A stretch of 62,496 nt of DNA from Myxococcota bacterium (GCA_039187775.1 JBCCZL010000001.1:1-62496), one strand, 5' to 3'; shown: positions 46,801-62,496, counted from the stretch's first letter. Translations and numbers: made by a program. The notes: a model not told the origin generated them from the letters alone.

Positions 46801-47515
46801 TGGACTCGCGGTTATCGATCCACTTGAGGAGCGCGTCGGTGTTCTGGCTTGTCGTAAAGGGCGCGATGCCCTCGAAGCCGACGAGCACATCACCGCCGCC
46901 AGTCGCGGTGCTACCGCAGCTTCCGCGGTAGTTTCCACACACCTGCGGAGAACTCGCCGCATTAAAGAGAAACAGGTTGTTGCTTCCAGAAGGACGGCAG
47001 GCCGCGGGGAAGGTGGACTGCCAATCGATGGGGCAGTTCACCCCCGGATTGACCGCCGCTCCAGTGTTGCACTGCGGGTTGCCGTAGGATGTAACAAAGG
47101 GGCCGCCGAAGTTGCACTCGTAGTTGTTGATGTTGGTCTGGAGCCCCGCCGTGCAGGTCGTGTTCGTTCCCTGGCTCTGACGGAACCGAGCCATCGCGAG
47201 GTCGATGTCGCCGCCGTAGGCGTAGATGAGATTTCGAATCGCCTCTTTCGCGACGAAGATTCGACTGTCGTTCGGAAGTCCATCGCAGTCGCTGTCGATC
47301 CCTGCGGTGCAGTTGGCGCCGCAGTACACGCCGCCGGACACCGTGCACCCCGTGGTGATCCCGTCCCCAAAGGTTGGCGTTCCGTTCAGGTCGAATGCCA
47401 TCGACCCCGACGTATCCACCGCGAGCATGATGCGCGGCGGCAGCTGGGCCGATGCCGGGTTTCCCCCGAACAGGAGCGACAACAACAAGACCCCAATTCC
47501 GAACGGTAGTCGCAT
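40838..47515 (-). CDS. giant vWA / CDGxDNDCDG cysteine-repeat / FGE-sulfatase (SUMF1-type) domain surface protein
   Basis: Start set at ATG 47515 (MRLPFGIGVLLLSLLFGGNPASA signal). MIDAS DTSGSM. About 24 CDGxDNDCDGxxDE repeats. C-terminal YDMSGNVREWT...RGGGF...GFRCCYYE. See the findings for the internal sorting-tag/signal junction. Confidence 0.9.
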   Translation of the reverse strand: MRLPFGIGVLLLSLLFGGNPASAQLPPRIMLAVDTSGSMAFDLNGTPTFGDGITTGCTVSGGVYCGANCTAGIDSDCDGLPNDSRIFVAKEAIRNLIYAYGGDIDLAMARFRQSQGTNTTCTAGLQTNINNYECNFGGPFVTSYGNPQCNTGAAVNPGVNCPIDWQSTFPAACRPSGSNNLFLFNAASSPQVCGNYRGSCGSTATGGGDVLVGFEGIAPFTTSQNTDALLKWIDNRESNPLLTATTAGNWCSHAGAGDCELRPEGPTPLAGTLNSVGTYMTTAQGSDPLFASCNRPYSIILITDGAQSTGCAPNDPVAAATALNTSGIRTYVVGLAITGGAATQLNAIAAAGGTDATPGLAGGEAFFANDPTTLSAGLSAIVADSFISETCDGTDEDCDGLTDEGFPLFCNVPAGQLTPTLCVDPGETNCDGVDDNCDGRIDEGVLNACGTCGPVPTEVCGNLLDDDCDGVIDEGCSGCPGTAETCNNVDDDCDGLTDEALTRACGTNIGECTAGTESCSAGAWVGCSAVGPNAEICDGLDNDCDGVIDGFTRQCGTSDVGKCQFGSQLCTGGTFGACVGNIEPSAEICDGIDNDCNGTVDNGNPGGGAMCGSNIGVCTPGTRACVGGMLACTGGVSPGMELCNGLDDDCNGVVDDGIPPLGACGASSTGECSLGTLVCVGGTPTCVGDRGPTAEVCDGLDNDCDGTNDNGNPGGGNPCGTATGVCELGTSQCVGGMLTCAGGVGPGAEVCDLLDNDCDGLVDEGNPGGGGACGMSDVGACEFGALACVMGMLQCIGETGPSPEICDGIDNNCNGMIDEGNPEGGAACGDDTGECRPGTTFCNAATGMLECMGAVGPTPEICDGLDNNCNGVADEGLPVGAPCGSDVGECSPGVNICRDGMLQCEGQIGPVAEVCDALDNDCDAMVDEGLPAGVACGSSEGLCMPGTQQCVDGREVCIGEVPPMREACDCQDNDCDGTTDETPMTGTLCPEGATCVDCQCALPCRRSEFGVSCPSGKTPFETNGECFCVAEQCSAESCGMETVERDGETLCGPDATDVTNCVCKNNECTFSCDGVVCTDGTVCNPLDPAGRCVEDSCRGLGCPAGLVCDGNTGECVEDACAAVTCMDSQACRDGACEESCAGVSCGPGQRCQSGSCVTDLCANTGCMVGEVCNPADGSCSSACADVTCPDRTVCDLMTGECESDPCNTLRCPEGEICRNGECTNETVAPGDAGMDGGDAGMEEAEGTRVLATGGGGCTCSTADGSPGNDEPQGPTWWLMAAMLFLYFVPRRRASALLKKALLFGGLVLLVGAAGCDVDPYCIDCIKSTADGGSDGGDGGISRPDATLDAEVDADAELPDGCMPGAPELCNMFDDDCDGVVDEGVDTMTDVDNCGGCGLRCAPIHAFGECVAGNCELGACDVSWYDLNNDISDGCEYRCSGTEADDTVCDLRDNDCDGLVDEDVAFDTDPTNCGACGRLCRFARATSSCSMMTCEIDSCDPNFFDIDGNSGNGCEYACTPASPAVEACNGLDDDCDGTVDEGNPEGGGNCGSNVGACVRGTELCMNGTLVCSGETAPVTESCDNVDNDCDGMTDEGNPDGGALCGSSVGTCEQGRQTCVNGALDCVGEVVAQPEVCDGLNNDCDGMIDEGDPGGGGSCGPAAVGACSPGTNRCRGGVLVCEGAVGATDETCDGADNDCDGMTDETDPAIGTSCGTDEGACTPGTRICSGGVLRCSGAFMGGAETCNGVDDDCDATVDEGNPGGGASCGSAVGACMAGTQTCTAGVLQCQGETTGSLESCDTIDNDCDGMTDEDFNLLTDLNNCGGCGTPCSIPNAAANCSGGSCNFVACLTGFWDINGDASMTPTDGCEYACSINGAEACNGIDDDCDMIVDEGLTPPTNFCNPNGVCMGTSPVCGGAAGWQCNYPATFEVSETRCDTLDNDCDGQTDEPFFPQLGSTCTNGLGLCQTVGLFICNPGDPLSIVCNAAPAGMPSGELCDNLDNDCDGVVDNGVGDIVTGDINAVRIPRPSGGFVRVMAYEASRPDATASEQGLANTLACSNANRLPWTDVTWNEANNACCALNSSGTCSGGSAEWRLCDSAEWTRACGNTADMCMWGYQNMCNTSQVTTCNGDEFDCSAASGDQDCLFPTGSPSFPMCRQVWTTGSIYDMSGNVREWTDTLAGAGRHEIRGGGFTNIEAGRTCAFDFTVADNSFSFPNVGFRCCYYE

Positions 47516-47603
47516 GACAAAACCCTCAGTTCCCGACAAGAAATGGGACCATGTAACCAAGCAAACGTCAACAATAACGGAAAACTACGTTGTTTGTGGA
47601 TAT

Positions 47604-50752: not shown

Positions 50753-53700
50753 TTACAGTCGAAGATCGATCTCAGCGGTCTGCCGGTAGGTGTTGAGCTC
50801 GTTCTCGGCCTCGAGGGTCTCGAAGCGGCGTCGGACGATCTCGAAACAGATCCGATACGCTCCAGGGCCAAGCGGCGCTCGGGGGAACACCAGCAGCTTG
50901 GTCGCGTCGCGGTTTTGAACGACGAGCGTCGCGACATCTTCGTAGACTCGGGTGCGAAACGTCGGAACGAACCGACGGTTCGGAAGAAGCGCGATCTCTG
51001 ACAGGCCGAGCTCGCGCACCACTCGCGCGACCTCGGGACGAAGCTCCCGGGTGGTGAGGTGGCCCTCGCCCGTGAATGAAAGAGTCTCCACCGCGGACCC
51101 TTCGAGCGTCGGTGCGGTCTCTATGCGCTCGGGAGCCGACCTTCGGGAAGTCAGTCGGAGTCTCGGAGCCTCCGGTCGCGCGTCCAGCCTCGCGTTGGTC
51201 AGCGTGGTCGGGGTGGGAATGGGACGTAGGTCGACCGGTCGAAGCGGTTCGCGGCGCGTCTCGGGGATGAGATCTCCGAGCGCCGGGTTGACGCGGGGCC
51301 GGAGAAGCTCCGGGCGAAGTCGCCCGAGGAGGTCCCGCACATCGCGGCCGACCCGCCGCCGAAGCTGCTTGAGCTCGAGGCCGACCTCCGACACGACATC
51401 GAGAGGCTCGGGGCTCTCGACCAGAAACGCCCCGACGGTGTCTCCACCGATCGCGGTGATGGTGACTCGCTCCGGGATGTCCTCGGTAAATACCACCAGC
51501 TCCGAAATGAGCTGGTCGAAGAGTTCTTCTCGCTCGGCGTCGGAGGCCTCCGGCTCCATCGCCGCCACGATGGCACCGAGATGGGTGCGGAGCGCCCTCT
51601 GGATCTCCTCGGCAGATCCTGGTTGCAGAAGAAGGCCGTCGAAGGAGTCGATGTGCTCTTCGAAGCTTCGGTAGCGGCTCGCGGTGAACGAATGGCTCGT
51701 CATATCGACGCCCGACACAAAGAGCGTGGTGATCGACGCGTTGGGGCTTGCAACGATGCTCGGAGGGCCCGAGTACCGCCGCTCCCGCGGCACGTCGAGG
51801 GATTGTCCACTGGCGCGAAACCGAACGATGTCGGCGTATATCACCGCTTCGATGAGCGCCGCGTCACCGACGTCGACCGATCGACCGCCCACCTCCAGCC
51901 GCCCGTCCCGAAGCCGTGCTTCGACTGCTCCGCCAAAGAGCTGGACACCAAAGTCTCCGGTTCCGCCGATCGAGATGCGCATGAGGTCCCATTCGGGGTC
52001 GCCGAACCCGAGCTCGCCGCCGGCGGGTGCCCGAAGCGCGCCGTCGGCCCATTCCCAGGCGCCCTCCCGCCGAAATGTGAGGAGGTCGGTTTCGGAGAAG
52101 CGCTTTCGGTGAATCCACGGTGCGCCCTCGGGCCGAACGCACGCCGTGTAGGTCGCGTTCGGTTCCCAGAGGCCCTCGTCCGGCTCCGAGACGACGGCGG
52201 CCTGCTCGACCCGAGTCGGATCGTCGATCCCGCACCGGTTGTCGCCCGCCTCGACCAATCGGCCGAATCGCTGCTTCGCTTCGTCCTCGGTCGACGCAAC
52301 GATCACTTGGAGGACGGAGCGCGCGAGGAACGCCGCGGCCCCAAGGAACGCGCCCCCTCGAGACAACCAGTCTTCGGAAGTCGCCGAGGAGCGACTCAGG
52401 AGCTCGTCGGCATTTCGGCCGGAGTTCGCACGCACGATCAAGGACACGGGAAAGGTCTGCCGATGTTCGTCGCTCGCGGTTCCTGGAGCGAAGAGCTTCA
52501 GGTCCTCGCTGAAGAGCGTCAGCACCGGTTCTTCGCGATAGAGCCGCCCTCGATGACCGCCGTAGGCTCGAACGACGTACGGGGCAAGCTCCTGCCCAAC
52601 ACTCTCGGTGAGATTCGTGCCAGGGAACCCCGACGTCTCGAAGGAGATGGATTCGGTGACCTCCGCGGCTTCCCAGTCGGTGGTCGAATGCTTCACCGAA
52701 ATGTGGGTCGTGATCTCGACGGTGTACTCGTGTTGCGGAAGAAAGAAGGTTCTTGCCGGCCGTTCCCGGTCCTCGTGGTTGCAGGCGTCGACCGCATTTC
52801 GATAGGCCAGATACTCGGTGACGGTCACTCCGACCAAGCCGGCGATCTCGATCCAGTTGGTCGGGATCAGGCGGTTGCCCACGACGATTCCGCCGTCCTG
52901 CTCGTTGGGTCGGGTCATCACCCGGACGGTGCGGAGGGGGCCGGTGACGAGGACGCTATGCCAAGTGCCGTTCGCGGGGAACGTCTGACGGTATACTTCG
53001 GCTCCCGCTCGGTCTTCTGCGACTACGTCGATGCCCGGTTCGCCGCTCAGACTGCTCACCCAGATTCGGAGGTACTGAATGTCCTCGTGGGCGACAAACT
53101 GCCAGCTTTGACCCGCGTCGAGGGACAGGACCCGACCGCTTCCCACGCTCGAGGTGGCTTCCGGCGGCTTGATGAAGCCCCGACGAAACCACACATTGGC
53201 GCGGACGTCGCTTACCGAATGAACGGGCAAGCGAGTCGGCCCGAGCGGTTCGCTTCGATAGTAGTGTTCAAAGAGCGTGAGCGTCGGATCGCAGCAGGGC
53301 CAGTTGGGGTTCTCGCGAAGTATCGAGTCGTCGGCCTCCGGTGAGTCGAAGGAAACGCCAAACGGCGTATTGCCATTGAGGAAGAGCTGCGACGCGACCG
53401 TTTGATCCTCGGACCGAATCTCAGAATTCCACGCCCAGCGAAAGATCGTGGGGGATTCGCTGCTGACGATCGCGCCCGACTCGTCCAACGTAAAGCGAGG
53501 GGTTCGCTCCTCGACGACCGTCCATTCGGCGTCGCTAAACCGAGGCCGCCGCTTGACGACCAGCTTCTGGAGCTCGTACCGGGTAAGGAGTTCGACGTCG
53601 TCGTCGCCGCTTGCCCGGATTCCGAAGTCTCCAGTGGGACTCAGGTCCAGTAGATCGTTGACCGGCTGGGCGAACTCGATGGTGATAGTGGCCGCTGGCG

Positions 53701-56665
53701 AGACGAGGTTCCGTTCGCCCGACCTTCGGAGCTCGGGTGCCCGGAAGTCGATCACCGACCCCAGCACGGTTTCGTCGGTTGCGCCGGGTGGAAACGCCTG
53801 CTCGAGCCGGAGCGGCGCCGTGCCGCCGGTCGCCTCGGAGAGCGCATTCGCATCGCGAAGGGCGCCAACGATCGCGGCGCGGGTTTCGGGCTCGACCGAA
53901 CCGAAGAGGAACTCGCAGGTAAAGGACAGGTCGGGAAGGAACCACGGCGTTTCGATGCGAAAGAGAATCGAAAACACGGTGTAGTTCGGAACGTGCGCAA
54001 TGTGCTCGATGTCGGCGGCGAGCTTGAGGCCAAACTGAAAGATCTTCAGAACGCTCAGCCGAATTCCCATCTCCCACGTCGCTCGAAGCGCGAAGTCTCC
54101 CGAGCCGGTGAGGAGCCAGATCGCGAGGAAGGAAAGGCCGCTGTAGCCGCTCGCGGAGAAGATGACGAAGTCGACGCCGATTTCGCCGCGAGCCGCGAAT
54201 CCGAATCCGCCGCGAACGTTCTCCACCCACTCGATGCAGAGTCCGATAAAGAACTCGAGCTTTCCGATGTTCTCGGGCAGCGCGATCTTGATCGTAAGAT
54301 TCGCCCAGCTTTTCTCGTCGTTGAGCCGCCCGAGAGCGAAGGTTCCCGGTCGGTTGCCGATCAGGAGGTTCGCTTTGATCTTGAACGCGTCCTTCAGGAT
54401 GTCCGGGGGGTTGTCGAGGAAGTGCTTCAGCGACAGATCGACGCCGATGCCGAGTGCCCACCGGTCGTTGGCGGCGTCGTATTCGAACACTGCGTACCCG
54501 ATCGGGTCCTTCGAGCTCAGGACGAAGAGTTCGATCGCGATCATGAACCCACGCTCGGACGGACTGTGAATGATCATACCGAACGCGCTCAGCCGGAAGA
54601 CATCGCCCATTCCTGCGAAGCCAATCGATAGCCCGACGCCAACCGCCCAGGCATCGTTCTCGGGCTGCCATACCGTCATTCTTCGATCGGGAGGAACGAG
54701 CAGCGGGTCCGCTCCTTTGGACCAGTTGTAGTAGCGAAGCTCGGGCGCGTCCTCGTCGAAAGAATCGAGCTTCGGCAACATATTCGAAGCGAACAGGATG
54801 CGAAAGCCGAAGCACTCGATCACGCCAAAGGGAATGCGACCTTCGAACGCGATCTGCAGCATCCAGTAGTCGAAGGCTTCCGCATCGTTGTCTGGCATCG
54901 GAGTGATGTTCCCGACGATGATGTCGAAGCCGAACTTGTACTTAGCGGCTTCGAGGTCGAGCTTGAGCGTCCCCGAAAGGCCGAACTCCTCTTTGAATAC
55001 GCGCTCGGTTTCGAGCGCGGCATTGGTGTAGTAGCCGAGGAACTCGAACAGAACCGCGCTGTTTCCGATCTTGCCGCCAAACCCGTCCATCTTGAGGTCG
55101 GCGGCGCTCGGGTTGCCCGCGACTTTGCCGCGGATCCGTTTGAACCACACCGAGGTCTCGAAGCCGTCGACTTCGATGCCGACCCCGCCGCTGATCGAGA
55201 AGTAGGCGGCCTCGTCCTCGTAGAGTACGCCGGTTTCGTAGAGCACGAGCTCGAGCGGCCCGAGCGTGAGCTGAGCGCCCTCAGGAAGCGAAAACGTCTC
55301 AAGGGAGAACGTCCCGAGCTTCCAGCCGAGGTCCGTGACCGCGATCGAAAAATCATCGTCTCCCAGAACCGTGAGCTGAAGTCCGGAGTTGCCGTTGGAG
55401 CTGTCCGCGTCGGATCCGCCGAGGGGTTCTTCGCTTACGCCGCCTCCAAGGAGCAGATCGACCGTGAAGAGGAACGAGTTTCCAAAATCTTCGCCGCGGA
55501 GCAGTCGGCCGATCGAGACACCGAACTTTGCCGCGATGATATCGATGCGAAGGATGCCAAAGAGATCCATGGCGAGGACCGCGACTTCGTCCCGACCCAT
55601 GGTGGGCGAACGACGGATGGCGGCGCTCACGGTCCACTCGTCTTCGAGTGCGATCAGCGCAGCGCCCCGGTCCTCGTTCACATCGAACACGATGCCCATC
55701 TCGAAGTTGATGCCCTCGGCGACGTCGGCCGGCGGTGGCAACGTCTCGAACCAGAACTTGCTCACCACGAGGCGAAGGTGCTCGGCGAGCTCGATGGAGA
55801 TCGGCGAGCCTCGCAGGTCGAAATAGTCAGTAAGGCGCGCGGTATTTTCGATCGAACGCCGAAGGCCCATCGTTCCATGGACGGGAAGCGGCAGGATCTG
55901 CACTGCGGGAATTACGACATCGTTGAACGCCCACTCGTATTCTCGAAACCCGTCCTCTCCGAGCTCCCGCGCAATCTGAACGATCGGATTGTCATCGTCG
56001 CCCCAATCGATGTCGAAGGTCCGAATCCCTACCGCTCCGGTGTTGGGGCTTGCCAGTGGGCTCTCGATGGGCCGGACGATCCAGTCGATGGTTTCGTGAA
56101 GGTTCGGCTGGTGAGGGAAAAAGCGAATGTCGAAGATGCCGCGGCAGGAGACTCCCATAAACTTCGCCGGCGCGACGCTCAGCGGGGTAATGGGCTCCAG
56201 CCGAAAGTCGCCGGCGGTCGAGTAACGGAGCCGCACCTCGGTGGTGAACACGGTGTCTCCGCTTCGAAACTCGACGATCTTGTCGGAGGTCTTGGATGCT
56301 CCATGGGGCCCGATGAAGTCGTGGGGAGTGACGATTTCTAGGGTGACGTTTTCGAGGATGACTTCGGTGGAGGTGCCACCGATTCGCACGACGAAGTCGA
56401 CCCCATCTTCGCGCTTCGCGCGAAACTCGAACGATGGGAACGCTTCGAGGCGGACGTCCAGCGGCGGTAGCTCCCGGAGAAACTCGAACTTCCCGGAGAT
56501 CACGGTCTCGTCGCCGAGCCGAGACGTGGAGAGGTTTTTGACCTCGACCTCTCGGGCGATCTCGGAGAGCCAGAGGTTGAGCGAGCCTCCCACCGGGCCG
56601 ATCTCGGAGGTGGGCCACGCGGCGGCCAACGGAGCAAGCGGGAAGACGTCGAAGAAGCGGATCAT
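50753..56665 (-). CDS. 1970-aa hypothetical protein (beta-rich, no recognised motif)
   Basis: ATGA overlap with the PLD-like gene (56662-56665). Native GC3 style throughout. The antisense ORFs are shadows. Confidence 0.85.
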   Translation of the reverse strand: MIRFFDVFPLAPLAAAWPTSEIGPVGGSLNLWLSEIAREVEVKNLSTSRLGDETVISGKFEFLRELPPLDVRLEAFPSFEFRAKREDGVDFVVRIGGTSTEVILENVTLEIVTPHDFIGPHGASKTSDKIVEFRSGDTVFTTEVRLRYSTAGDFRLEPITPLSVAPAKFMGVSCRGIFDIRFFPHQPNLHETIDWIVRPIESPLASPNTGAVGIRTFDIDWGDDDNPIVQIARELGEDGFREYEWAFNDVVIPAVQILPLPVHGTMGLRRSIENTARLTDYFDLRGSPISIELAEHLRLVVSKFWFETLPPPADVAEGINFEMGIVFDVNEDRGAALIALEDEWTVSAAIRRSPTMGRDEVAVLAMDLFGILRIDIIAAKFGVSIGRLLRGEDFGNSFLFTVDLLLGGGVSEEPLGGSDADSSNGNSGLQLTVLGDDDFSIAVTDLGWKLGTFSLETFSLPEGAQLTLGPLELVLYETGVLYEDEAAYFSISGGVGIEVDGFETSVWFKRIRGKVAGNPSAADLKMDGFGGKIGNSAVLFEFLGYYTNAALETERVFKEEFGLSGTLKLDLEAAKYKFGFDIIVGNITPMPDNDAEAFDYWMLQIAFEGRIPFGVIECFGFRILFASNMLPKLDSFDEDAPELRYYNWSKGADPLLVPPDRRMTVWQPENDAWAVGVGLSIGFAGMGDVFRLSAFGMIIHSPSERGFMIAIELFVLSSKDPIGYAVFEYDAANDRWALGIGVDLSLKHFLDNPPDILKDAFKIKANLLIGNRPGTFALGRLNDEKSWANLTIKIALPENIGKLEFFIGLCIEWVENVRGGFGFAARGEIGVDFVIFSASGYSGLSFLAIWLLTGSGDFALRATWEMGIRLSVLKIFQFGLKLAADIEHIAHVPNYTVFSILFRIETPWFLPDLSFTCEFLFGSVEPETRAAIVGALRDANALSEATGGTAPLRLEQAFPPGATDETVLGSVIDFRAPELRRSGERNLVSPAATITIEFAQPVNDLLDLSPTGDFGIRASGDDDVELLTRYELQKLVVKRRPRFSDAEWTVVEERTPRFTLDESGAIVSSESPTIFRWAWNSEIRSEDQTVASQLFLNGNTPFGVSFDSPEADDSILRENPNWPCCDPTLTLFEHYYRSEPLGPTRLPVHSVSDVRANVWFRRGFIKPPEATSSVGSGRVLSLDAGQSWQFVAHEDIQYLRIWVSSLSGEPGIDVVAEDRAGAEVYRQTFPANGTWHSVLVTGPLRTVRVMTRPNEQDGGIVVGNRLIPTNWIEIAGLVGVTVTEYLAYRNAVDACNHEDRERPARTFFLPQHEYTVEITTHISVKHSTTDWEAAEVTESISFETSGFPGTNLTESVGQELAPYVVRAYGGHRGRLYREEPVLTLFSEDLKLFAPGTASDEHRQTFPVSLIVRANSGRNADELLSRSSATSEDWLSRGGAFLGAAAFLARSVLQVIVASTEDEAKQRFGRLVEAGDNRCGIDDPTRVEQAAVVSEPDEGLWEPNATYTACVRPEGAPWIHRKRFSETDLLTFRREGAWEWADGALRAPAGGELGFGDPEWDLMRISIGGTGDFGVQLFGGAVEARLRDGRLEVGGRSVDVGDAALIEAVIYADIVRFRASGQSLDVPRERRYSGPPSIVASPNASITTLFVSGVDMTSHSFTASRYRSFEEHIDSFDGLLLQPGSAEEIQRALRTHLGAIVAAMEPEASDAEREELFDQLISELVVFTEDIPERVTITAIGGDTVGAFLVESPEPLDVVSEVGLELKQLRRRVGRDVRDLLGRLRPELLRPRVNPALGDLIPETRREPLRPVDLRPIPTPTTLTNARLDARPEAPRLRLTSRRSAPERIETAPTLEGSAVETLSFTGEGHLTTRELRPEVARVVRELGLSEIALLPNRRFVPTFRTRVYEDVATLVVQNRDATKLLVFPRAPLGPGAYRICFEIVRRRFETLEAENELNTYRQTAEIDLRL

Positions 56666-59409
56666 GACCCCTCCGCGTAGCTCGAGGGGTCACTGATGAT
56701 GTCGAACACGGCATCCTCCTCGGCCGCGAGGATCATTGCGGCCACGAGGCTGAGGGCCGCGGTCCCGAGGCCGAGGCCTTCGACATCGAGAAACGGACCG
56801 CTCGTGCCGCCGCCGCTGAAGAGCTCCGGATAGGTTGCTTCGGTGGCGAAATCGATAAAGCGGTTTCCCTTCTTTCGCGACCGCTCGAACCATGGGATGG
56901 CGTGAAGCGGATCGCGAAACAGGACGCGGCCGACCGCTTCTGGGATGTGGAGCGCCTCCGACCAGAGGCGCGTTCGGAGGTCCCGGATCCAGTTGTTCGG
57001 CGTAAAGCGAAGCCGATCGGGCATCGCGAAGATGTTGCACTCGCCGTCGGAGAAGTAGCCGCGGCGACTTGCGGCGGCCGAGCCAATGCTGGCGAACACA
57101 TCGTCGACGATCATCACGCTGGAGTGCACATGGATGCCCTTGAAGTCGACCACCGTTGCCGCCGCCCCCGTTTTGTGCTTGTCCGGCTCGCTGCCTTCGT
57201 CGGGTCCGAAGAACTGGGTCGCGGCGCCGCGTCGGATCTGAAGCCGGACCACCGCGTCCTCGGTGGTGTCGGTCTTGTTCACCACCTGGATGATCTCCTT
57301 ATCGACCACCATCCAAAACGGCGGCGAGGGGACTCGAGCGGCGGGTTTGACCTCGACGGTTTCCGATACCGACGGTCGTTCTTCCAGGGGCTCGTTGAGG
57401 TAAAGACGGCCATTGTCGGCTTTGCGGACGGTTCGAATCGCGCTGTAACCGCGGCGCATCACGCCGACCCGGGCGGTGGGGATTCTCCCCGCGAATGCGC
57501 TTCTTGGTCCGAAGCCAAAGGGCTGGTCCGGGGTGGCGGGAACCATGATGAACACTTCGACGCCTCGATCCACCGCGGCGACTATCTCGTCCACATACTC
57601 AGATGGCGGCGTTAGGTGTTGATCCTCGACGTAGATGAACTGCCGTGCGTTGCGGATTGCGCTCAGGGTGGTTTCGTAGATCGTTGTCTCGCCGGTCGGC
57701 GCGAACGTGAAAGGCGCGGTGGACCCGTCGGGGTTGGGGGCGAAGTAGGTGCGGGCGATCTGCACCACGTCGTTGCCAGCGCTCGGCAGATCCTCGTAGG
57801 GCGGAGTCGAGATCGCCAGGGGCTCGGTACTGGCCCGAGTCCAGCGTTCCGCAAAGGTGAGGGCCAAGTCGCGGACCGCGGGGCCGTCTACTCGCGCGTG
57901 CACATCTTTGAAAGGGGCGGAGATCTTGTGTTCGAAGTCGTCGAGGCGATCGGGATTGAGGTCGACGCCTCCCGCGTAGGCGTGAACCCCGTCGTCGTTC
58001 CGGATGACGGCGATCTTCTGATGGAAGACGTTGAAGCGGTCCATCAGGGTGAGCACGGTGTTGACCACGGACTCCGACGGGAGGCTGGTGACCTTGAGCG
58101 GGTTGTCATCCGACGACGCGGGGTAGGGATCGAAGAGGGCGATCGAATCCGGAGCCCGGGTGAGCGCGTCGACCGCGGCTCGGTTGGGTTCACCCAGGGT
58201 TTCGACCAGTTCCTCGAGGTGGCCTGCCGCGATCACCCCGCCCACGATCAGCAGGAAGAGGTTCATCAGCGTGGTCGTGTCGAGGAGCTCCTCGTCCACG
58301 AGAAGATCGATCGTGATGGCGCCCGCGAGGAGCACGACCAGCAGCACCATCAGCGCGTCACCGAGGTCGGACACCGCCCCCGACCGAAGCTGAAAGAAGT
58401 CGAGGGCGAGGAATCGGGCGCTCCCGCCCGCATCGATCAGTGCATTTACCGAATCACGGGTGGTGGCGGGAATCCCCGGCAGTTCGGTGAGGACGTCGTC
58501 CGGGGAGATGAAATACCCGGTCAGGTGAAAGCCCGGCTCCGGACGGGTCCCAATCCGTGAGAGCTCGCGAAACATCTCGTCAAAGACCTCGGCGTTCAGG
58601 AACGGCACTACGGTGTTTCCGAGCGTCCAGCGCGAGAGTGCGGTCGTCTGCTGAGGTGAAAACCAGCTCTCCAGGTCGGTAAACGAAATGGTCCGAATAC
58701 CTGGGACGATTTCGATTTCGTCCATCGCGGATACCCCGTCGTCGCGGGTGAAAAGGCGGTCCGCGAATGAGAGACGCCGGCCGTTCAGGTCGGCGCGAGA
58801 GGTGGTTGCGGACACCAGGTTGCCCGCATCGTCGGTGCTGAGGCGCGATGACACTCCGTCCCGAACAAAGGTGAACGTACCGCGCCGAGGGCGGCCGAGC
58901 GCATCGCGAAGGATCAGGGCATCGTCGCCGAGCGCCCGTCGAGCCGCGTCGAGAAGGATGCTCAACTCGCGTGACCCGCGGACCGAGCCCACCGCGTCGC
59001 TGAGCCACTGGAGGGAATCGAGGATGTCCTCTGCGCCATTGTCTGGCGTGAGAATGGCGAAGACGAAGTGTGGACTCGCGGCGGAGATTTCGCTCGTCCA
59101 GGTGATCGAGCCTTTGTCGACGGTCGTCGCGGTATCGGGGAGCGCGACGTAGATCGTCGGCCACACCCGAAGCGCGCTAAGGACCGCGGGAAACTCGAGC
59201 GGAAGGGCTTCGAACTCCAGCACTCGAACGTCGTCGCTCGTCTTGCGGTTCACCCAGCCGGTGCACGGAGAGAGGAGCCGAATGGGAACGCTTCCCTCGA
59301 TGCGAAGCGCCGAAACGTGCATTCCCCCGTAGCGAAGCCCGGACGGAATCGAAAGCACGTCCCGGGTAATCGTCGTCCCGGTGAAGTTCGGGAACGGCGT
59401 CGTAAACAT
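56662..59409 (-). CDS. phospholipase D superfamily (HKD) domain protein, 915 aa
   Basis: Start set at ATG 59409 (MFTTPFPNFTG), overlapping the upstream TGA (TGATG). FHQKIAVIRNDDGVHAYAGGVDL and IHVHSSVMIVDDVFASIGSAAASRRG motifs. The first 158 codons of the track ORF overlap the upstream gene and are Arg/Gly-rich. Confidence 0.85.
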   Translation of the reverse strand: MFTTPFPNFTGTTITRDVLSIPSGLRYGGMHVSALRIEGSVPIRLLSPCTGWVNRKTSDDVRVLEFEALPLEFPAVLSALRVWPTIYVALPDTATTVDKGSITWTSEISAASPHFVFAILTPDNGAEDILDSLQWLSDAVGSVRGSRELSILLDAARRALGDDALILRDALGRPRRGTFTFVRDGVSSRLSTDDAGNLVSATTSRADLNGRRLSFADRLFTRDDGVSAMDEIEIVPGIRTISFTDLESWFSPQQTTALSRWTLGNTVVPFLNAEVFDEMFRELSRIGTRPEPGFHLTGYFISPDDVLTELPGIPATTRDSVNALIDAGGSARFLALDFFQLRSGAVSDLGDALMVLLVVLLAGAITIDLLVDEELLDTTTLMNLFLLIVGGVIAAGHLEELVETLGEPNRAAVDALTRAPDSIALFDPYPASSDDNPLKVTSLPSESVVNTVLTLMDRFNVFHQKIAVIRNDDGVHAYAGGVDLNPDRLDDFEHKISAPFKDVHARVDGPAVRDLALTFAERWTRASTEPLAISTPPYEDLPSAGNDVVQIARTYFAPNPDGSTAPFTFAPTGETTIYETTLSAIRNARQFIYVEDQHLTPPSEYVDEIVAAVDRGVEVFIMVPATPDQPFGFGPRSAFAGRIPTARVGVMRRGYSAIRTVRKADNGRLYLNEPLEERPSVSETVEVKPAARVPSPPFWMVVDKEIIQVVNKTDTTEDAVVRLQIRRGAATQFFGPDEGSEPDKHKTGAAATVVDFKGIHVHSSVMIVDDVFASIGSAAASRRGYFSDGECNIFAMPDRLRFTPNNWIRDLRTRLWSEALHIPEAVGRVLFRDPLHAIPWFERSRKKGNRFIDFATEATYPELFSGGGTSGPFLDVEGLGLGTAALSLVAAMILAAEEDAVFDIISDPSSYAEGS

Positions 59410-62400
59410 CAGGCCCCTCCCGATGCAGGAAGTCGACGGGGGCCGATCAGTGTCGAGGTGGTCCCATTTCGGAAGCTGGCGACCCACACCTGCACCTCGG
59501 CGTCGCTTCGACGGGTGACCGGCACATCCCACACCAGCTGGTCGACTCCGCGGTCCTCGTTGCGCCGGGTCGAGGCTCCGTCTGGCGAAAGAGTAACGGG
59601 CACGATGAGATCGCCGTCGTCGGTCCGGACGCGGTGGGTGCGTGAGGGATCGAGGTCCGCCCGGTTCTTCACCGTCAATAGCCGCGCGCCGACCTCCGGC
59701 GGAGTCGCGCCCGTGACCTCGGTCGCAAACAGGAGGATGGTTGGGGCCTGAGGATTTGCCCCCAGGAGATCGACGGTCACTTGGACGTTCACCTCTGCAT
59801 CGGACAACGCTTCGAGCGGCGAAAGCTCGGGAACGAGCGGGCGGGATCGATCGGGGACCACCACCGCCACCGGAGCGAGCCAAGCGTTTACGGAAGTGCG
59901 GCCTTTCGCGTCGGACGCTTGAACGCGATAGAACCAGCGGCCCGGGACGTTGGGGAGCGAGTCGATGTGGGGGCGGAGCGGACCCTGATACACCGTGGTC
60001 CAGAGCGAAGTCAGCTCGTATCGGTTAGCGATCGTGGCTAGCCACAGATCCTCGATTCGCCCGCGTCGGATCTGATCGAGGAGGTCCGGAGTGGCGTCGT
60101 CGATCCTGACGCCGCTTTCGTCCGTGTCGGTGTCCACCCAGGCCTCCACGTCGACCCGCCGAACCCGCCGTGCGATCGCGTCGCCGCTCACGCGCTGAAT
60201 GCGAACATCGCCGGCAACCCAGCCGGGCGGGCCCCAGTCTTCCGCACGAAACTCGAACCGAAGGTCGTTTCCGCGGAGGAGGCGAAGCTCTCGCCGGTCG
60301 ACCTCCAAGAGCTCGGTACTCGGCACCTCCGGACGGCCAAAGTACTCCGCGAGGATCGGCGCGGACGCGGCGTAGCTCTCATTGCCCCACCGCCCCGCGA
60401 GCGGTCCTGAAGAGATGGTGTCCGTGACGTAGCGTTGATCGTCGGCCGCGGTCACTCCGAGATAGCCGCGAATACTCGGGCCGTCGGCGTCGATCGTGAT
60501 GAGATCTCCGTCGAGCACGAGCGAGTAGCTTGTTCGCATCGGCCGTGGGTCGTCGATCGGTTGAATCGCAATGCGCCGGTCCCAGCTCGTCGGAGGACCT
60601 CCACCGTCACGGTCCGACCGGGAGAGACGAAAGCTTCCCGCCCGAGGCTGGGCGGTGTCGTCGGCGGTGCTCTCATCCACGCGAATCGCAATGCGTGAAC
60701 CGGCGCCGTGGCTCACGATCCGAAACGGGTGAGGCAGCCCGATGCTCTGCCCGACGAGCGCGTTTTCGGCGACCGACTCCTCGAGTTCCACGCTGATCTC
60801 GAAAAAGTCGCCGTCGCGGCGCGTCGATAGCACTCGTCCGCCGACCGAGTTGTAGTCGTTCGCCCGAAAGTAGATTCGAAACTCTCGAACGAACGGATCG
60901 CGATCGCGTTCGGTGGGCGGCTCTCCATCTTCGGCGGGCGCGGCCCATCCCCACTCGAGCACGATCGCCACATCCCGACGGTCGAGCGTCTTCGCGTCGC
61001 GAGGAAATTTGCGACGAAACGCCTCCTGGTCGAGGGGGTAACGTGGATCGTGGCGCTGAAGGACGCGGACCCGGACGCCGGCCCGGGGATCGGCACCGCG
61101 GTCGATGGGACCTCCGGGAATCGGAGGCGGCAGGTGCTTCTCAAGGCGCTGTGGCGAAGCATCCAGAGGAGCCGACCGGCGCCCGATCGGATCGACGGTG
61201 GTCACTCGGTACGTGAAAGACTCCCCGTACGGAGTGTTGGCCCGCTTGCCTTTGATGATCGACTGGAGGGTGTCATCGATCTCCACCCATCGGGAATGCG
61301 CGGCCGGTCGGTGTTCGGATGAGAACCGACGCTCGATGTCGATGCCCGGACCTTCGGACGGAGTGGGCAGATCGAGCTGTCGCGCACCCACGATGAGACC
61401 CGCGTCCGAGTCGTAGGGGCGGAATGCTCCGTCCGACCCGGCGCGTTCGAGAATGAAGTGCGCGCTGTCGAGCGGGGGCGCGTAGGGAAGGTCGACCGGC
61501 CACGGGGTGTCGGTAGGATCGATGGCAACGCGAAAGCCCGCCATGTGTTGTTCGCGCTGCGCGCTGACCGGGTTCTGGAGATTGCCAGCTTCGATTCGTT
61601 CGGCGGTGCGAGGTCCCGGAGAGTCATAAAAGACGACGTTCCGGAGGACCGCCTCGCGGGTCTCCACGTCGGTGGGACCGTGGACTCGCGGTTGTTCGAT
61701 CACCGCGGAGATAAACATCTCGCCGCGGATCCGAACGCTATCGAACAACGCCGGACTTGTGAGCTGAGTGCGCCCCGACGGGGAGAGCGTGACCGAGTGC
61801 ACGGTGCTTCCGCGATGGGAGAAGGCGACATCCACGCTGCCGAAGAGATCGACGGCCAGGAAACGAGTCGGCGCGGGCAGAATGAGAGTGAGGAGCCGTG
61901 GCCGGATCCCTTTGTGCAGGGTCTCGAACGCTTTACCGTTCGGAGGAGTTCGCGACACCACCATCGTTTGCCGGCCGGGAACCCAAAGCACCGCACCGGT
62001 TCGGAAGAGCCCGGGAAGGGACGTGCCGAGCGGCACCGCGGTGAACTCGTGACGCACGTCGTGAAGGTCGCGCGATAGGAACTCGCCGGTGATGCGGTAG
62101 TCGTAAGCTTCATTGAACGTAAGCTCGTCCGCCGGGTCGAAGTAGCCGAAGCCGAGGCCGCGTCGCCACTCGGGAAGCAGGCTGAGCGCCATCGCGTTGC
62201 CGAACACCTGCGTTTCGATTCCGAGGCTTGTTTGGCCATGGCGTTGGCAGATCGATCGGAGCGGAACATCGAGGGTTCGGGTGTCCGAAATCGCGCTAAA
62301 GAGTCGCTCGAACTCCCCGAACTCGACCCGCTCTCCATCGATCAAGCGGGAACCAATGAGATCCCGGGCGTCGGCTACAGTTCCGATCGAAGGATGAATG

Positions 62401-62496
62401 GGAGCGAACGGAAGCTGAATGTCCTTCGCGATTCGATGCTCTTCTTCCCATGGATCGGAGAGGATGTTGCGGCAGCACAGCTCGAGCATCTCGAGC
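59409..62496 (-). CDS. large hypothetical protein with FN3-like segments; N-terminus probably beyond the window
   Basis: Open from the window edge (in-frame ...LE before M at 62489). YRVTTVDPIGRRSAPL and WFYRVQASDAKGRTSV resemble FN3 G-strand endings. Confidence 0.8.
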   Translation of the reverse strand, partial: LEMLELCCRNILSDPWEEEHRIAKDIQLPFAPIHPSIGTVADARDLIGSRLIDGERVEFGEFERLFSAISDTRTLDVPLRSICQRHGQTSLGIETQVFGNAMALSLLPEWRRGLGFGYFDPADELTFNEAYDYRITGEFLSRDLHDVRHEFTAVPLGTSLPGLFRTGAVLWVPGRQTMVVSRTPPNGKAFETLHKGIRPRLLTLILPAPTRFLAVDLFGSVDVAFSHRGSTVHSVTLSPSGRTQLTSPALFDSVRIRGEMFISAVIEQPRVHGPTDVETREAVLRNVVFYDSPGPRTAERIEAGNLQNPVSAQREQHMAGFRVAIDPTDTPWPVDLPYAPPLDSAHFILERAGSDGAFRPYDSDAGLIVGARQLDLPTPSEGPGIDIERRFSSEHRPAAHSRWVEIDDTLQSIIKGKRANTPYGESFTYRVTTVDPIGRRSAPLDASPQRLEKHLPPPIPGGPIDRGADPRAGVRVRVLQRHDPRYPLDQEAFRRKFPRDAKTLDRRDVAIVLEWGWAAPAEDGEPPTERDRDPFVREFRIYFRANDYNSVGGRVLSTRRDGDFFEISVELEESVAENALVGQSIGLPHPFRIVSHGAGSRIAIRVDESTADDTAQPRAGSFRLSRSDRDGGGPPTSWDRRIAIQPIDDPRPMRTSYSLVLDGDLITIDADGPSIRGYLGVTAADDQRYVTDTISSGPLAGRWGNESYAASAPILAEYFGRPEVPSTELLEVDRRELRLLRGNDLRFEFRAEDWGPPGWVAGDVRIQRVSGDAIARRVRRVDVEAWVDTDTDESGVRIDDATPDLLDQIRRGRIEDLWLATIANRYELTSLWTTVYQGPLRPHIDSLPNVPGRWFYRVQASDAKGRTSVNAWLAPVAVVVPDRSRPLVPELSPLEALSDAEVNVQVTVDLLGANPQAPTILLFATEVTGATPPEVGARLLTVKNRADLDPSRTHRVRTDDGDLIVPVTLSPDGASTRRNEDRGVDQLVWDVPVTRRSDAEVQVWVASFRNGTTSTLIGPRRLPASGGA

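What the first reader, a model, noticed from the sequence alone, without database searches (positions are those of the whole stretch)
56662..59409. PLD-superfamily protein with asymmetric HKD motifs and a central hydrophobic hairpin
- **Motif 1** (DNA about 57961-58026, residue about 463): FHQKIAVIRNDDGVHAYAGGVDLNPDR. It keeps His and Lys and the GG(V)DL block. The Asp expected four residues after Lys is Arg, followed by NDD.
- **Motif 2** (57061-57135, residue about 762): [26 protein letters not shown]. It aligns as H-x-S-x4-D...GS-A-A, meaning Lys to Ser and Asn to Ala.
- About 300 residues separate the two motifs.
- Upstream lie two hydrophobic stretches (ALMVLLVVLLAGAITIDLLV and LMNLFLLIVGGVIAAGHL, DNA about 58215-58365). 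Before them is an N-terminal region of about 350 aa with no motif I recognise.

One intact and one degenerate half-site in a pseudo-dimeric PLD fold suggests altered chemistry or a binding rather than a catalytic role.
Basis: partly seen in the sequence, partly recalled or inferred. Interest (0 to 1): 0.65.

Follow-up and report, generated by a model that had tools for sequence, protein, structure and literature searches.

The report
Crippled phospholipase D in giant-gene cassette
This gene encodes a phospholipase-D-type enzyme with a built-in greasy hairpin that, in dozens of unrelated bacteria, always sits with two giant genes of unknown function; in this genome its second catalytic motif has lost key residues, so it probably no longer cuts lipids in the usual way.

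Summary
Window 56662-59409 (-) encodes a 915-aa two-lobed PLD. Motif 1 (FHQK...GGVDL) is intact. Motif 2 reads H-S-S...GSAAAS instead of H-x-K...GSxN.

Three corrections:
- The missing Asp in motif 1 is a family-wide trait (R or K in 78 of 94 relatives) and is known from other PLD-like proteins.
- The hydrophobic hairpin is an insertion of about 78 residues inside the N-terminal PLD lobe. It occurs in 56 of 60 cassette-linked relatives and in 0 of 23 stand-alone PLDs.
- The degenerate motif 2 is not a family feature. About 93% of roughly 100 relatives carry canonical VH(S/A/T)K...GSxNxNRRG.

The window protein alone combines K764S, N779A, N781S, Y598H and Y760H, which required at least 6 nucleotide changes in motif 2. 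Three of these map onto catalytic-pocket residues of P. aeruginosa PldA.

The larger finding is context. The PLD is the middle gene of a translationally coupled three-gene module: A (about 1,100 aa), the PLD, and C (about 2,000 aa). A and C match no Pfam, NCBIfam, PADLOC, PHROG or PDB entry. The module recurs in at least 55 genomes across many phyla, in varied surroundings, sometimes beside integrases.

Best reading: a membrane-anchored, eukaryote-type PLD subunit whose catalysis is disabled here while the fold is retained. The module's function is unknown.

The parts
56662..59409 (-). Gene B: 915-aa two-lobed PLD-superfamily protein, the subject of the finding
   Evidence: ORF and translation. 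Pfam PLDc_2 above cutoff. PDB profile hits to PLDalpha1, PldA and PLD1/2.
58645..59409 (-). N-terminal domain of B (residues 1-255), mixed beta/alpha, no known family
   Evidence: This is the only confidently modelled part of the AF2 model, with pLDDT 70-85 over residues 10-240. No significant Foldseek match. No Pfam hit.
58552..58623 (-). Start of the N-terminal PLD lobe (residues 263-286, LGNTVVPFLNAEVFDEMFRELSRI)
   Evidence: The N-lobe profile aligns this block to PldA (7v53) residues 46-99, which is the start of its HKD1 subdomain.
58216..58356 (-). Hydrophobic helical hairpin inserted in the N-lobe. Helix 1 is residues 352-371, the acidic loop DEELLDTTT is 372-380, and helix 2 is 381-398.
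   Evidence: Hydropathy peaks of 2.8 and 1.9. About 78 extra residues relative to PldA between the lobe start and HKD1. Present in 56/60 cassette-linked PLDs and 0/23 stand-alone relatives. Helices are predicted in the low-confidence AF2 model.
57946..58026 (-). HKD motif 1 (residues 462-488): FHQKIAVIRNDDGVHAYAGGVDLNPDR. It contains His463, Lys465, Asp483 and Arg488.
   Evidence: Aligned to HKD1 of PLD2, PldA and PLDalpha1. H is conserved in 92/94, K in 93/94 and D483 in 95/95. Position 470 is R or K in 78/94.
57841..57918 (-). PLD hallmark block APFKDVHARVDGPAVRDLALTFAERW (residues 498-523). It includes Asp502, the counterpart of PldA Asp467.
   Evidence: This is the best-scoring aligned stretch to all solved eukaryote-type PLDs. 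Residue roles come from PMC9550806.
57604..57639 (-). Motif III, FIYVEDQHLTPP (residues 591-602), the counterpart of IYIENQFF. Tyr598 is replaced by His only in this protein.
   Evidence: Aligned to FIYIENQFF of PldA and FIYVENQYF of PLDalpha1. Y is found in 98/102 family members. Position 598 corresponds to pocket residue Phe629 of PldA.
57058..57135 (-). Degenerate HKD motif 2 (residues 759-784): [26 protein letters not shown]. His762 is kept. The changes are Lys764 to Ser, Asn779 to Ala, Asn781 to Ser and Tyr760 to His.
   Evidence: Alignment to HKD2 of solved PLDs. Family consensus is YVH(S/A/T)K..DD......GSxNxNRRG. Codon comparison. Independent contigs agree.
56680..56778 (-). C-terminal hydrophobic segment (residues 878-896) followed by the conserved terminal motif DAVFDIISDPSS (899-910)
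   Evidence: Hydropathy 2.0. The segment and the F-D/N-x3-D-P-S/T-S/T motif recur across the family.
59409..62496 (-). Gene A (partial, at least 1,028 aa, cut by the window end): the giant upstream partner with no known domain
   Evidence: 29% identity over about 1,060 aa to the 1,162-aa A of L001, starting at its residue 153. Found in 50 or more loci. No Pfam match in 24 homologues. Only a weak titin-type Ig/FN3 match, E = 0.009.
50753..56665 (-). Gene C (1,970 aa): the giant downstream partner with no known domain. Residues about 470-920 are predicted as a long antiparallel beta meander.
   Evidence: 59% identity to L004 C and 31% to L001 C, full length. No Pfam match in 23 homologues. No PDB match. 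AF2 model is low-confidence. Foldseek gives only low-TM hits to the ApoB100 beta-belt, LptD and TonB barrels.

Best explanation
**Shown.** Gene B is a member of a distinct, sparsely distributed bacterial family of eukaryote-type, two-lobed phospholipases D.
- The family carries an inserted hydrophobic helical hairpin in the N-lobe.
- It is encoded between, and translationally coupled to, two giant proteins of unknown fold: A (about 1,100 aa) and C (about 2,000 aa).
- The three genes form a self-contained module that has spread horizontally.

**Inferred for the family.** The hairpin and the C-terminal hydrophobic segment hold the enzyme on the cytoplasmic face of the membrane. No signal peptide is evident in A, B or C by inspection of their N-termini. 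The composite His-Lys / His-Lys site hydrolyses or transphosphatidylates membrane phospholipid. A and C act as partners in one complex.

**Shown for this genome.** The HKD2 half of the site has been selectively dismantled by K764S, N779A and N781S, together with Y598H and Y760H. Almost every other family-conserved position is kept.

**Inferred for this genome.** This copy has lost normal PLD catalysis. It is retained as a non-catalytic subunit of the A-B-C module, either as a scaffold or as a lipid-binding part. In other words, it is a naturally disarmed pseudo-PLD rather than a specially designed asymmetric enzyme.
For: **PLD identity and subtype.**
- establish PLD homology.
- The hallmark blocks PFKDVH...ERW and FIYVEDQHL (counterpart of IYIENQFF) are present (motif definitions in PMC3056787).
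- The cardiolipin-synthase model scores 59 bits against a cutoff of 290. DrmC reaches only E = 0.0018.

**Cassette.**
- A, B and C homologues lie together in about 55 loci from Alphaproteobacteria, Actinomycetota, Gemmatimonadota, Acidobacteriota, Bacteroidota, Nitrospira and others.
- No fourth conserved gene appears among 60 loci.
- Gene junctions are mostly -4, -1 or up to +5 nt.
- Integrases or transposases are adjacent in L001, L005 and L087, and account for 6 of 96 flanking ORFs.

**Hairpin.** It is specific to the cassette-linked family, at 56/60 against 0/23, and is an insertion relative to PldA.

**Degeneracy is private to this lineage.**

**The loss is selective.**
- Of 106 columns that are at least 85% conserved, the window deviates at 14, and 8 of those are shared with its clade.
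- Of the 6 window-unique deviations, 4 fall in the catalytic or hallmark set. The hypergeometric P is 0.011.
- Mapping to PldA: K764 corresponds to Lys857, N779 to Asn872 and Y598 to Phe629. All three are described as catalytic or pocket residues (PMC9550806).
- Several of the changes need two nucleotide substitutions each, so the fold stayed under constraint while the site changed.

**The rest of the module looks intact.** C is full length at 1,970 aa, and A is open as far as the window reaches.

**Convergence.** P0101, at 29% identity, lost the same positions (762, 764, 779, 781, 597, 598).
Against: - No activity data exist. His463, Lys465, Asp483, Arg488, Asp502, His762, Ser777 and Glu790 are all retained, so residual or altered activity cannot be excluded.
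- The structural test failed. The AF2 model of the PLD core is unreliable (pLDDT below 50), so the geometry of the site and the exposure of the hairpin were not seen.
- Membrane insertion of the hairpin is inferred from hydropathy only. Helix 2 is only moderately hydrophobic in many relatives. The flanks are acidic and do not follow a clear positive-inside pattern.
- The variant is a singleton from one marine metagenome at about 5x depth. No closer relative than 62% identity was found, so fixation in a lineage is not shown.
- In L087, the other degenerate copy sits beside a C gene split in two. That fits decay as well as it fits retention.
- Complex formation among A, B and C is inferred from synteny and gene overlap only.
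Confidence: 0.5

Rival explanations
1. Recent inactivation without retained function. The cassette encodes a self-toxic lipid-degrading effector, for example of an abortive-infection or competition system. This copy of B is simply a knocked-out allele on its way to decay and serves no purpose.
For: - About 5% of family members carry independent catalytic-residue losses: P0002 H762N, P0101, P0086 H463N, L011 H463R.
- This is the pattern expected for toxic effectors.
- In L087 the degenerate B is accompanied by a split C and lies next to integrases.
- Phytophthora PLD-like genes of similar type could not be cloned intact in E. coli (PMC3056787), which hints at toxicity of this PLD type.
Against: - There are no frameshifts or stops in 915 + 1,970 + at least 1,028 codons.
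- Apart from changes shared with its clade, the window protein deviates at only 2 non-active-site conserved positions (I594V, P714D), while the active site accumulated at least 6 nucleotide changes. Neutral decay should scatter changes.
Confidence: 0.22
2. Remodelled but active site. The enzyme still turns over a phosphodiester using His463, Lys465 and His762. The new His598, His760 and Ser764 change substrate preference or chemistry.
For: - Both catalytic histidines, the HKD1 Lys, Arg488, Asp502 and Glu790 are retained.
- Two of the five private substitutions create histidines at positions that are Tyr or Phe in at least 95% of relatives.
- One of them lies on the same strand face as His762, by i/i+2 geometry. 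This is an inference.
Against: - In solved PLDs the HKD2 Lys and Asn contact the phosphate (PMC9550806).
- K758R alone inactivates human PLD2. This is my own knowledge; the mutant is used in PMC2173982.
- P0101 lost the same positions to Gly, Ser and Ala with no sign of rebuilding.
- No relative shares the new histidines.
Confidence: 0.13
3. The family is a nuclease-type PLD, like Nuc, BfiI or DISARM DrmC, that acts on DNA within a restriction-like defence module. It is not a lipid enzyme.
For: Weak PADLOC DrmC matches at E = 0.0018 and 0.011. The module is mobile and patchily distributed.
Against: - The best matches by 10 or more orders of magnitude are lipid PLDs: PLDalpha1, PldA and PLD1/2.
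- The protein carries the lipid-PLD hallmark blocks and a hydrophobic hairpin.
- A and C contain no helicase, methylase or ATPase domains.
Confidence: 0.05
4. The family acts as a synthase or transphosphatidylase (cardiolipin-synthase-like) that makes a special lipid for a structure built by A and C. It is not a degradative effector.
For: - The NCBIfam cardiolipin synthase model gives the top NCBIfam hit, E = 3.9e-16.
- ClsA-type enzymes also combine hydrophobic helices with two HKD domains (my own knowledge).
- C is predicted, at low confidence, to contain a very long beta meander whose best Foldseek hit is the lipid-wrapping ApoB100 belt.
Against: - The score of 59 is far below the equivalog cutoff of 290, and only the central part aligns.
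- The hallmark blocks are those of hydrolytic eukaryote-type PLDs.
- The C model is unreliable, with TM below 0.25.
Confidence: 0.1

Closest known systems
Pseudomonas aeruginosa PldA (Tle5a), PDB 7v53 (PMC9550806)
   Same: - It is a bacterial, eukaryote-like two-lobed PLD of about 1,000 aa.
- HKD1, the PW(H/Q)DVH...RW block, FIYIENQFF and HKD2 all align.
- Nine active-site or pocket residues can be mapped one to one.
   Different: - PldA has no hydrophobic hairpin in the N-lobe. It has large peripheral helical insertions instead.
- It is a T6SS effector paired with an immunity protein, not flanked by A- or C-type giants.
- PldA has canonical Lys857 and Asn872, where the window protein has Ser and Ala.
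Plant PLDalpha1 (6kz8) and human PLD1/PLD2 (6u8z, 6ohm)
   Same: Best sequence-profile matches, at 6e-17 to 5e-13. They show the same four conserved regions.
   Different: - They have C2 or PX/PH lipid-binding domains instead of an inserted hairpin.
- Both HKD motifs are canonical, including the Asp of HKD1.
- They are eukaryotic signalling enzymes.
Phytophthora PLD-like and sPLD-like-B proteins (PMC3056787)
   Same: HKD1 lacks the Asp (HKR, HKA, HKT or HKL). They have IYIEDQYF rather than IYIENQFF and GSANWN after HKD2. The authors report that the nearest relatives are bacterial.
   Different: They are secreted or soluble, with no hairpin and no A/C partners. Their HKD2 is intact.
Pseudo-PLDs: vertebrate FAM83 (DUF1669) and PLD5 (PMC6008594)
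   Same: The PLD fold is kept while catalytic HKD residues are lost, and the domain is reused as a binding or anchoring module.
   Different: Those are whole families fixed in the dead state. Here the family is canonical and only isolated lineages, including this one, are degenerate. They are not related by descent beyond the superfamily.
Bacterial cardiolipin synthase ClsA/ClsB (TIGR04265, NF008427)
   Same: Two HKD domains combined with hydrophobic helices. These give the top NCBIfam hit.
   Different: The score is far below the cutoff (59 against 290). In Cls the helices are N-terminal, not inserted in the lobe (my own knowledge). Cls lacks the PWHDVH and IYIENQFF blocks (my own knowledge).

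Membership tests
PLD superfamily (Pfam clan, PLDc/PLDc_2) | Significant match to a PLD-domain profile above the curated threshold | tested here: met
   PLDc_2 scores 32.7 bits against a gathering score of 27, E = 7.6e-8, with two stretches. Family profile against PDB PLDs reaches 6e-17.
PLD superfamily (catalytically competent HKD enzyme) | HKD1 with His and Lys, plus the Asn/Asp of the GG-x-(N/D) element | tested here: met
   His463, Lys465 and G480-G481-V-D483 align to PldA His167, Lys169 and Asp184. The x4-Asp is Arg470, as in 50/94 relatives, and Lys in a further 28.
PLD superfamily (catalytically competent HKD enzyme) | HKD2 with His, Lys and the Asn of G-S-x-N | tested here: not met
   His762 is present. 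Lys764 is Ser and Asn779 is Ala; Asn781 is also Ser. Family values are K 93/100 and N 93/97.
Eukaryote-type ('true') phospholipase D subfamily (conserved regions I-IV) | Presence of the P-x-H-D-V/I-H...F..RW block and the IYIENQ(F/Y)F block between the two HKD motifs | tested here: met
   APFKDVHARVDGPAVRDLALTFAERW and FIYVEDQHL align to these blocks in 6kz8, 7v53 and 6ohm. The window has two deviations: H501K, which is clade-wide, and Y598H, which is unique.
Eukaryote-type phospholipase D subfamily | Phospholipid hydrolysis or transphosphatidylation activity | not testable with these tools
No member of this family has been characterised, as far as the literature searches showed.
Cardiolipin synthase (NCBIfam TIGR04265 equivalog) | Score at or above the curated equivalog cutoff over the full model | tested here: not met
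   59.1 bits against a cutoff of 290. Only model positions 217-385 of 483 align.
Nuclease-type PLD of defence systems (DISARM DrmC) | Significant match to DrmC models, and association with DISARM partner genes | tested here: not met
   E = 0.0018 and 0.011 only. The neighbours are A and C, which match no PADLOC model.
Any catalogued anti-phage defence system (PADLOC-DB v2) | Component proteins match system models | tested here: not met
   A and C have no hits at E <= 1. Flanking genes show only sporadic defence hits, 3 of 96 ORFs.
Integral or monotopic membrane protein | Hydrophobic helices long enough to enter the bilayer, shown by a topology predictor or by experiment | tested here: inconclusive
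   Two segments of 20 and 18 residues have KD means of 2.8 and 1.9 and are conserved in 56/60 relatives. No dedicated topology predictor was available, and the AF2 model is unreliable in this region.
Pseudoenzyme (pseudo-PLD) | Loss of catalytic residues together with retention under purifying selection and loss of activity | tested here: inconclusive
   Loss of residues is shown. Selective retention of the other conserved positions is shown: 100 of 106 once clade-wide changes are set aside, P = 0.011. Activity and lineage-level fixation are not testable, because no close relatives exist.

The most novel reading that the evidence does not exclude
The A-B-C module is an undescribed, horizontally mobile three-protein machine that acts on membrane lipid. 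One possibility is a new abortive-infection or conflict system in which two giant sensor or scaffold proteins control a hairpin-anchored phospholipase D. Another is a lipid-surface assembly built on a giant beta-sheet protein. On either reading, the copy in this window is a naturally disarmed variant that shows B also has a non-catalytic role.
Probability: 0.3. Interest if true: 0.75.

Novelty: new variant of a known kind. Interest (0 to 1): 0.55.

Why it matters
**The PLD itself.** It belongs to a well-known superfamily, and its degenerate second motif is a lineage-specific quirk.

**The setting.**
- This is a hairpin-bearing PLD subfamily locked into a three-gene module with two giant proteins of about 1,100 and 2,000 aa. 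Those two proteins have no detectable relatives in Pfam, NCBIfam, PADLOC, PHROGs or the PDB.
- The module is present in at least 55 genomes from many phyla, including cultivable Ruegeria, Roseivivax lentus, Streptomyces hyaluromycini, Actinomadura, Nonomuraea and Nocardioides.
- That makes an uncharacterised, widely transferred system directly testable in laboratory strains.

**Value of the natural variants.** The variants with dismantled active sites offer ready-made controls for separating catalytic from structural roles of the PLD subunit.

Tried and rejected
- **Structure prediction of B** with the 7-sequence alignment gave mean pLDDT 46.7, and the PLD core was below 50. Foldseek against PDB gave nothing significant.
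- **Structure prediction of C** (residues 1-1190) with 4 sequences gave pLDDT 40. Foldseek hits to ApoB100, LptD and TonB barrels had TM below 0.25. I treat these as a lead only.
- **Word-indexed homologue searches** badly under-reported the family, returning 7 proteins. The exhaustive search and the genome scan showed about 100 clusters and 55 or more loci.
- **Internal duplication** between the N- and C-lobes was not detectable by hhalign.
- **B's N- and C-terminal regions** show no relation to A or C.
- **Mobile-element databases.** C is absent from the plasmid and phage collections. B is absent from IMG/VR.
- **Fourth conserved gene.** None was found.
- **Defence-island test.** A survey of 96 flanking ORFs was inconclusive.
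- **P0048** (2,288 aa) looked like an A-B fusion, but the linker is Arg/Gly/Pro-rich sequence typical of an out-of-frame read-through. I rejected it as Rosetta-stone evidence.
- **dN/dS** between the window and L004 was not attempted, because synonymous sites are saturated at 62% amino-acid identity.
- **Metagenome scan** found no closer relative that shares the degenerate motif.

Full report
**1. The observation**

Window 56662-59409 (-) is an uninterrupted 915-codon ORF. The longer TTG-initiated version (1,073 aa) adds only Arg/Gly/Pro-rich sequence that looks out of frame.

The ATG at 59409 overlaps the stop of the upstream ORF (TGATG). The stop overlaps the ATG of the downstream ORF (ATGA). 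A GGAGG-like site lies 6-9 nt before each start.

PLD homology:
- Pfam PLDc_2 passes its gathering score, 32.7 against 27 bits.
- phmmer against PDB sequences finds plant PLDalpha1, human PLD2 and PLD1, and a 1,099-aa bacterial PLD.
- With a family profile these rise to 6e-17 down to 7e-13.

- FHQKIAVIRNDDGVHAYAGGVDL against [20 protein letters not shown] or HHQKSVVIDNRIGYVGGIDL.
- [23 protein letters not shown] against [23 protein letters not shown].

The two hydrophobic stretches are at residues 352-371 and 381-398, with Kyte-Doolittle 19-residue means of 2.8 and 1.9.

**2. What the family looks like**

The word-indexed search returned only six relatives, but that search was too insensitive:
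- An exhaustive HMM search found 515 proteins below 1e-30. Roughly 100 full-length 50%-identity clusters are aligned over the whole 915 residues.
- A scan of one genome per species found 326 relatives.

I aligned 106 representatives (A2) and about 85 genome-derived ORFs.

HKD1:
- His is present in 92/94 and Lys in 93/94.
- The Asp of GG-x-D is present in 95/95.
- The 'x4-Asp' position is Arg (50) or Lys (28), and Asp only once.

The same trait (HKR, HKA or HKT, together with IYIEDQYF and GSANWN) has been described for Phytophthora PLD-like and sPLD-like-B proteins, whose nearest relatives the authors report as bacterial (PMC3056787).

HKD2 is canonical in the family: VH(S/A/T)K-x4-DD-x5-GSxNxNRRG, with His 96/100, Lys 93/100 and Asn779 93/97.

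Members with intact-looking sequence but substituted catalytic residues:
- The window protein.
- P0002/L004, its closest relative at 62% identity: H762N, a single CAC-to-AAC change.
- P0101: H762G, K764S, N779S, N781S.
- P0086: H463N.
- L011: H463R.

**3. What is peculiar to the window protein**

Of 106 columns that are at least 85% conserved, the window protein deviates at 14. Eight of these are shared with P0002 and/or P0003 and are clade features. Six are unique: I594V, Y598H, P714D, K764S, N779A and N781S. Position 760 is Tyr or Phe in 89/94 and is uniquely His here.

The motif-2 changes need at least 6 nucleotide substitutions: AAA to AGC, AAC to GCC, GTA to GCA, and AAY to AGT. An independent assembly of the same marine metagenome run shows the same sequence at about 5x depth. 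These are evolved differences, not errors.

I mapped the residues through the HMMER alignments onto P. aeruginosa PldA (7v53), whose active site is described in PMC9550806.

| Window protein | PldA counterpart | State here |
|---|---|---|
| H463 | H167 | retained |
| K465 | K169 | retained |
| D483 | D184 | retained |
| R488 | R189 | retained |
| D502 | D467 | retained |
| H762 | H855 | retained |
| S777 | S870 | retained |
| E790 | E885 | retained |
| S764 | catalytic Lys857 | changed |
| A779 | Asn872 | changed |
| H598 | pocket residue Phe629 | changed |

Four of the six unique deviations fall in a 20-position catalytic or hallmark set. The hypergeometric P is 0.011, with the caveat that the set was defined by me.

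P0101, only about 29% identical, lost an overlapping set of positions: 762, 764, 779, 781, 597 and 598.

The pattern is a dismantled pocket with the fold conserved elsewhere. That fits a disabled or remodelled site in a protein still under constraint, not general decay.

From my own knowledge, the HKD2 lysine is the residue mutated in the standard inactive PLD1-K898R and PLD2-K758R alleles. The latter is used in PMC2173982.

**4. The hairpin**

A profile of the region 255-565 aligns residues from about 262 onward (LGNTVVPFLNAEVFDEMFREL...GFHLTGYFI) to PldA residues 46-99. That is the start of its HKD1 subdomain (subdomain limits from PMC9550806).

From that point to the HKD1 His there are about 120 residues in PldA and about 198 here. 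The extra residues, about 78, contain the two hydrophobic helices. The hairpin is therefore an insertion inside the N-lobe, and the unassigned N-terminal domain is about 255 aa.

A hydrophobic segment (17-residue KD mean above 1.8) in the 110 residues before HKD1 is present in 56/60 cassette-linked PLDs and in 0/23 stand-alone PLD relatives recovered by the same scan.

A third hydrophobic segment (878-896) and a terminal F-D/N-x3-D-P-S/T-S/T motif are also conserved.

Whether the helices cross or merely dip into the membrane could not be tested. No topology predictor was available, and the AF2 model is unreliable there.

**5. Genomic setting**

In every contig long enough to show it, B lies between two giant genes:
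- Gene calls for P0006, P0002, P0003 and P0005 show 1,085-1,162 aa, then B, then 1,970-1,991 aa.
- phmmer of the window's neighbours against six-frame ORFs of all fetched loci finds A and C homologues in about 55 loci.
- The hosts include Ruegeria, Roseivivax lentus, Streptomyces hyaluromycini, Actinomadura, Nonomuraea and Nocardioides astragali. MAGs of Gemmatimonadota, Acidobacteriota, Bacteroidota, Nitrospira, Chloroflexota and others also carry it.
- The order is A-B-C except in L038 and L041, where it is B-A-C.
- The more distant PLDs (L063-L086) lack both partners.

Conservation of the partners:
- Window C is 59% identical to L004 C and 31% to L001 C over the full length.
- Window A is cut by the window end and aligns from residue 153 of L001 A.

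Gene junctions overlap by 1 or 4 nt, or are separated by at most 5 nt, in most loci. The script that measured this picks the nearest start codon, which favours small gaps.

Clustering of 2,435 flanking ORFs from 60 loci found no fourth conserved gene.

In the window the module ends at C. The next gene converges from the + strand and encodes a response-regulator/DUF4388/TPR protein.

Surroundings vary. Integrases or transposases abut the module in L001/L002, L005 and L087. Among 96 flanking ORFs, Phage_integrase is the most frequent family (4), but defence-related hits are rare: AbiEii, DRT and PtuA-like, one each.

The module was not found in the plasmid, phage or IMG/VR collections.

**6. A and C**

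Neither protein matches anything:
- No Pfam, NCBIfam, PADLOC or PHROG hit for the window copies.
- No Pfam hit at E <= 0.05 shared by more than one member among 23 C and 24 A homologues.
- No PDB sequence match with family profiles, apart from a weak titin Ig/FN3-type hit for the A N-terminus at E = 0.009.

Neither has a strongly hydrophobic segment. By inspection of the N-termini, neither has a signal peptide.

The AF2 model of C 1-1190 is poor (pLDDT 40). It places about 24 long antiparallel strands between residues 470 and 920, at pLDDT 50-70. Foldseek returns the ApoB100 beta-belt, LptD and TonB-dependent barrels, with TM below 0.25. I treat this only as 'probably a very large beta sheet'.

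**7. Interpretation**

Shown:
- B is a PLD of the eukaryote-like subtype.
- The hairpin is a synapomorphy of the cassette-linked family.
- The cassette is conserved, self-contained and phylogenetically scattered.
- The window copy has a uniquely altered HKD2 and pocket.

Inferred:
- Membrane anchoring through the hairpin.
- Lipid as the substrate.
- A-B-C forming one complex.
- Loss of canonical catalysis in this copy, with retention for a non-catalytic role.

The main rival is recent knockout of a self-toxic effector. It is hard to separate from the preferred reading without close relatives or assays. I weigh it lower because substitutions are concentrated in the pocket while 4,000 or so codons of the module remain open. 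Altered-but-active chemistry cannot be excluded, because both histidines remain.

What the module does (defence, competition, lipid remodelling) is unknown. The evidence for a defence role is circumstantial only.

**8. Novelty**

The PLD fold and the pseudo-PLD concept are known (FAM83 and PLD5; PMC6008594). What appears undescribed is a hairpin-bearing PLD subfamily fixed in a module with two giant orphan proteins. Literature searches for PLD/HKD defence systems and related terms found nothing that matches. I rate it a new variant of a known kind, with a moderate chance that the module as a whole is a new kind of system.

Noticed in passing
window 40838-47560 (-): A 2,240-aa ORF has 8 or more MopE-type Cu-binding repeats (E = 1.8e-83) and a C-terminal FGE-sulfatase domain. 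A 2,046-aa antisense ORF (41369-47509 +) is probably an artefact of repeats in GC-rich DNA. Together with the DUF4388 response regulator next door, this suggests a Myxococcota-like host. That is an inference.
   Followed up: partly
window 47661-50600 (+): A 979-aa response-regulator receiver, DUF4388 and C-terminal TPR protein converges on the end of gene C. It marks the downstream limit of the cassette.
   Followed up: partly
L087 4866-14044: This is the other cassette with a fully degenerate HKD2 (P0101: VVGSS...GSGSIS). Its C gene is split into overlapping 1,095-aa and 949-aa ORFs. A 538-aa ORF and two phage-integrase genes follow. The split could be a frameshift from decay or a long-read assembly error.
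   Followed up: partly
L041 8945-21937; L038: In these two loci (an Actinomycetota MAG and an Alphaproteobacteria MAG) the gene order is B-A-C instead of A-B-C.
   Followed up: no
P0048 (2,288 aa, from the representative search): This is an apparent A-B fusion protein. The junction is Arg/Gly/Pro-rich sequence typical of out-of-frame translation in GC-rich DNA, so it is probably a frameshift or gene-calling artefact rather than a true fusion.
   Followed up: partly
window 50753-56665 (-), C residues 1124-1125, 1295, 1478: Gene C has an invariant Pro-Cys-Cys (P1123-C1124-C1125) and two further invariant cysteines across 23 homologues from many phyla. It also has many invariant Trp and Gly residues. 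These may form a metal or redox site, or be structural.
   Followed up: no
window 56680-56715 (-), B residues 899-910: The extreme C-terminus of B carries a motif conserved across the whole family: F-D/N-x-I/V-I/V-D-P-S/T-S/T. It follows an amphipathic or hydrophobic segment. It may be a docking or sorting signal.
   Followed up: no
L011 2950-5976: A Pseudomonadota MAG copy of B has Arg in place of the HKD1 histidine (FRQK), while A and C appear full length. This is another independent catalytic-residue loss.
   Followed up: no
window 32149-33771 (-); 38562-39524 (+): These are ordinary accessory genes elsewhere in the window: a type-B carboxylesterase (E = 1.9e-110) and an AraC-family regulator. 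There are no tRNA genes in the whole window.
   Followed up: no
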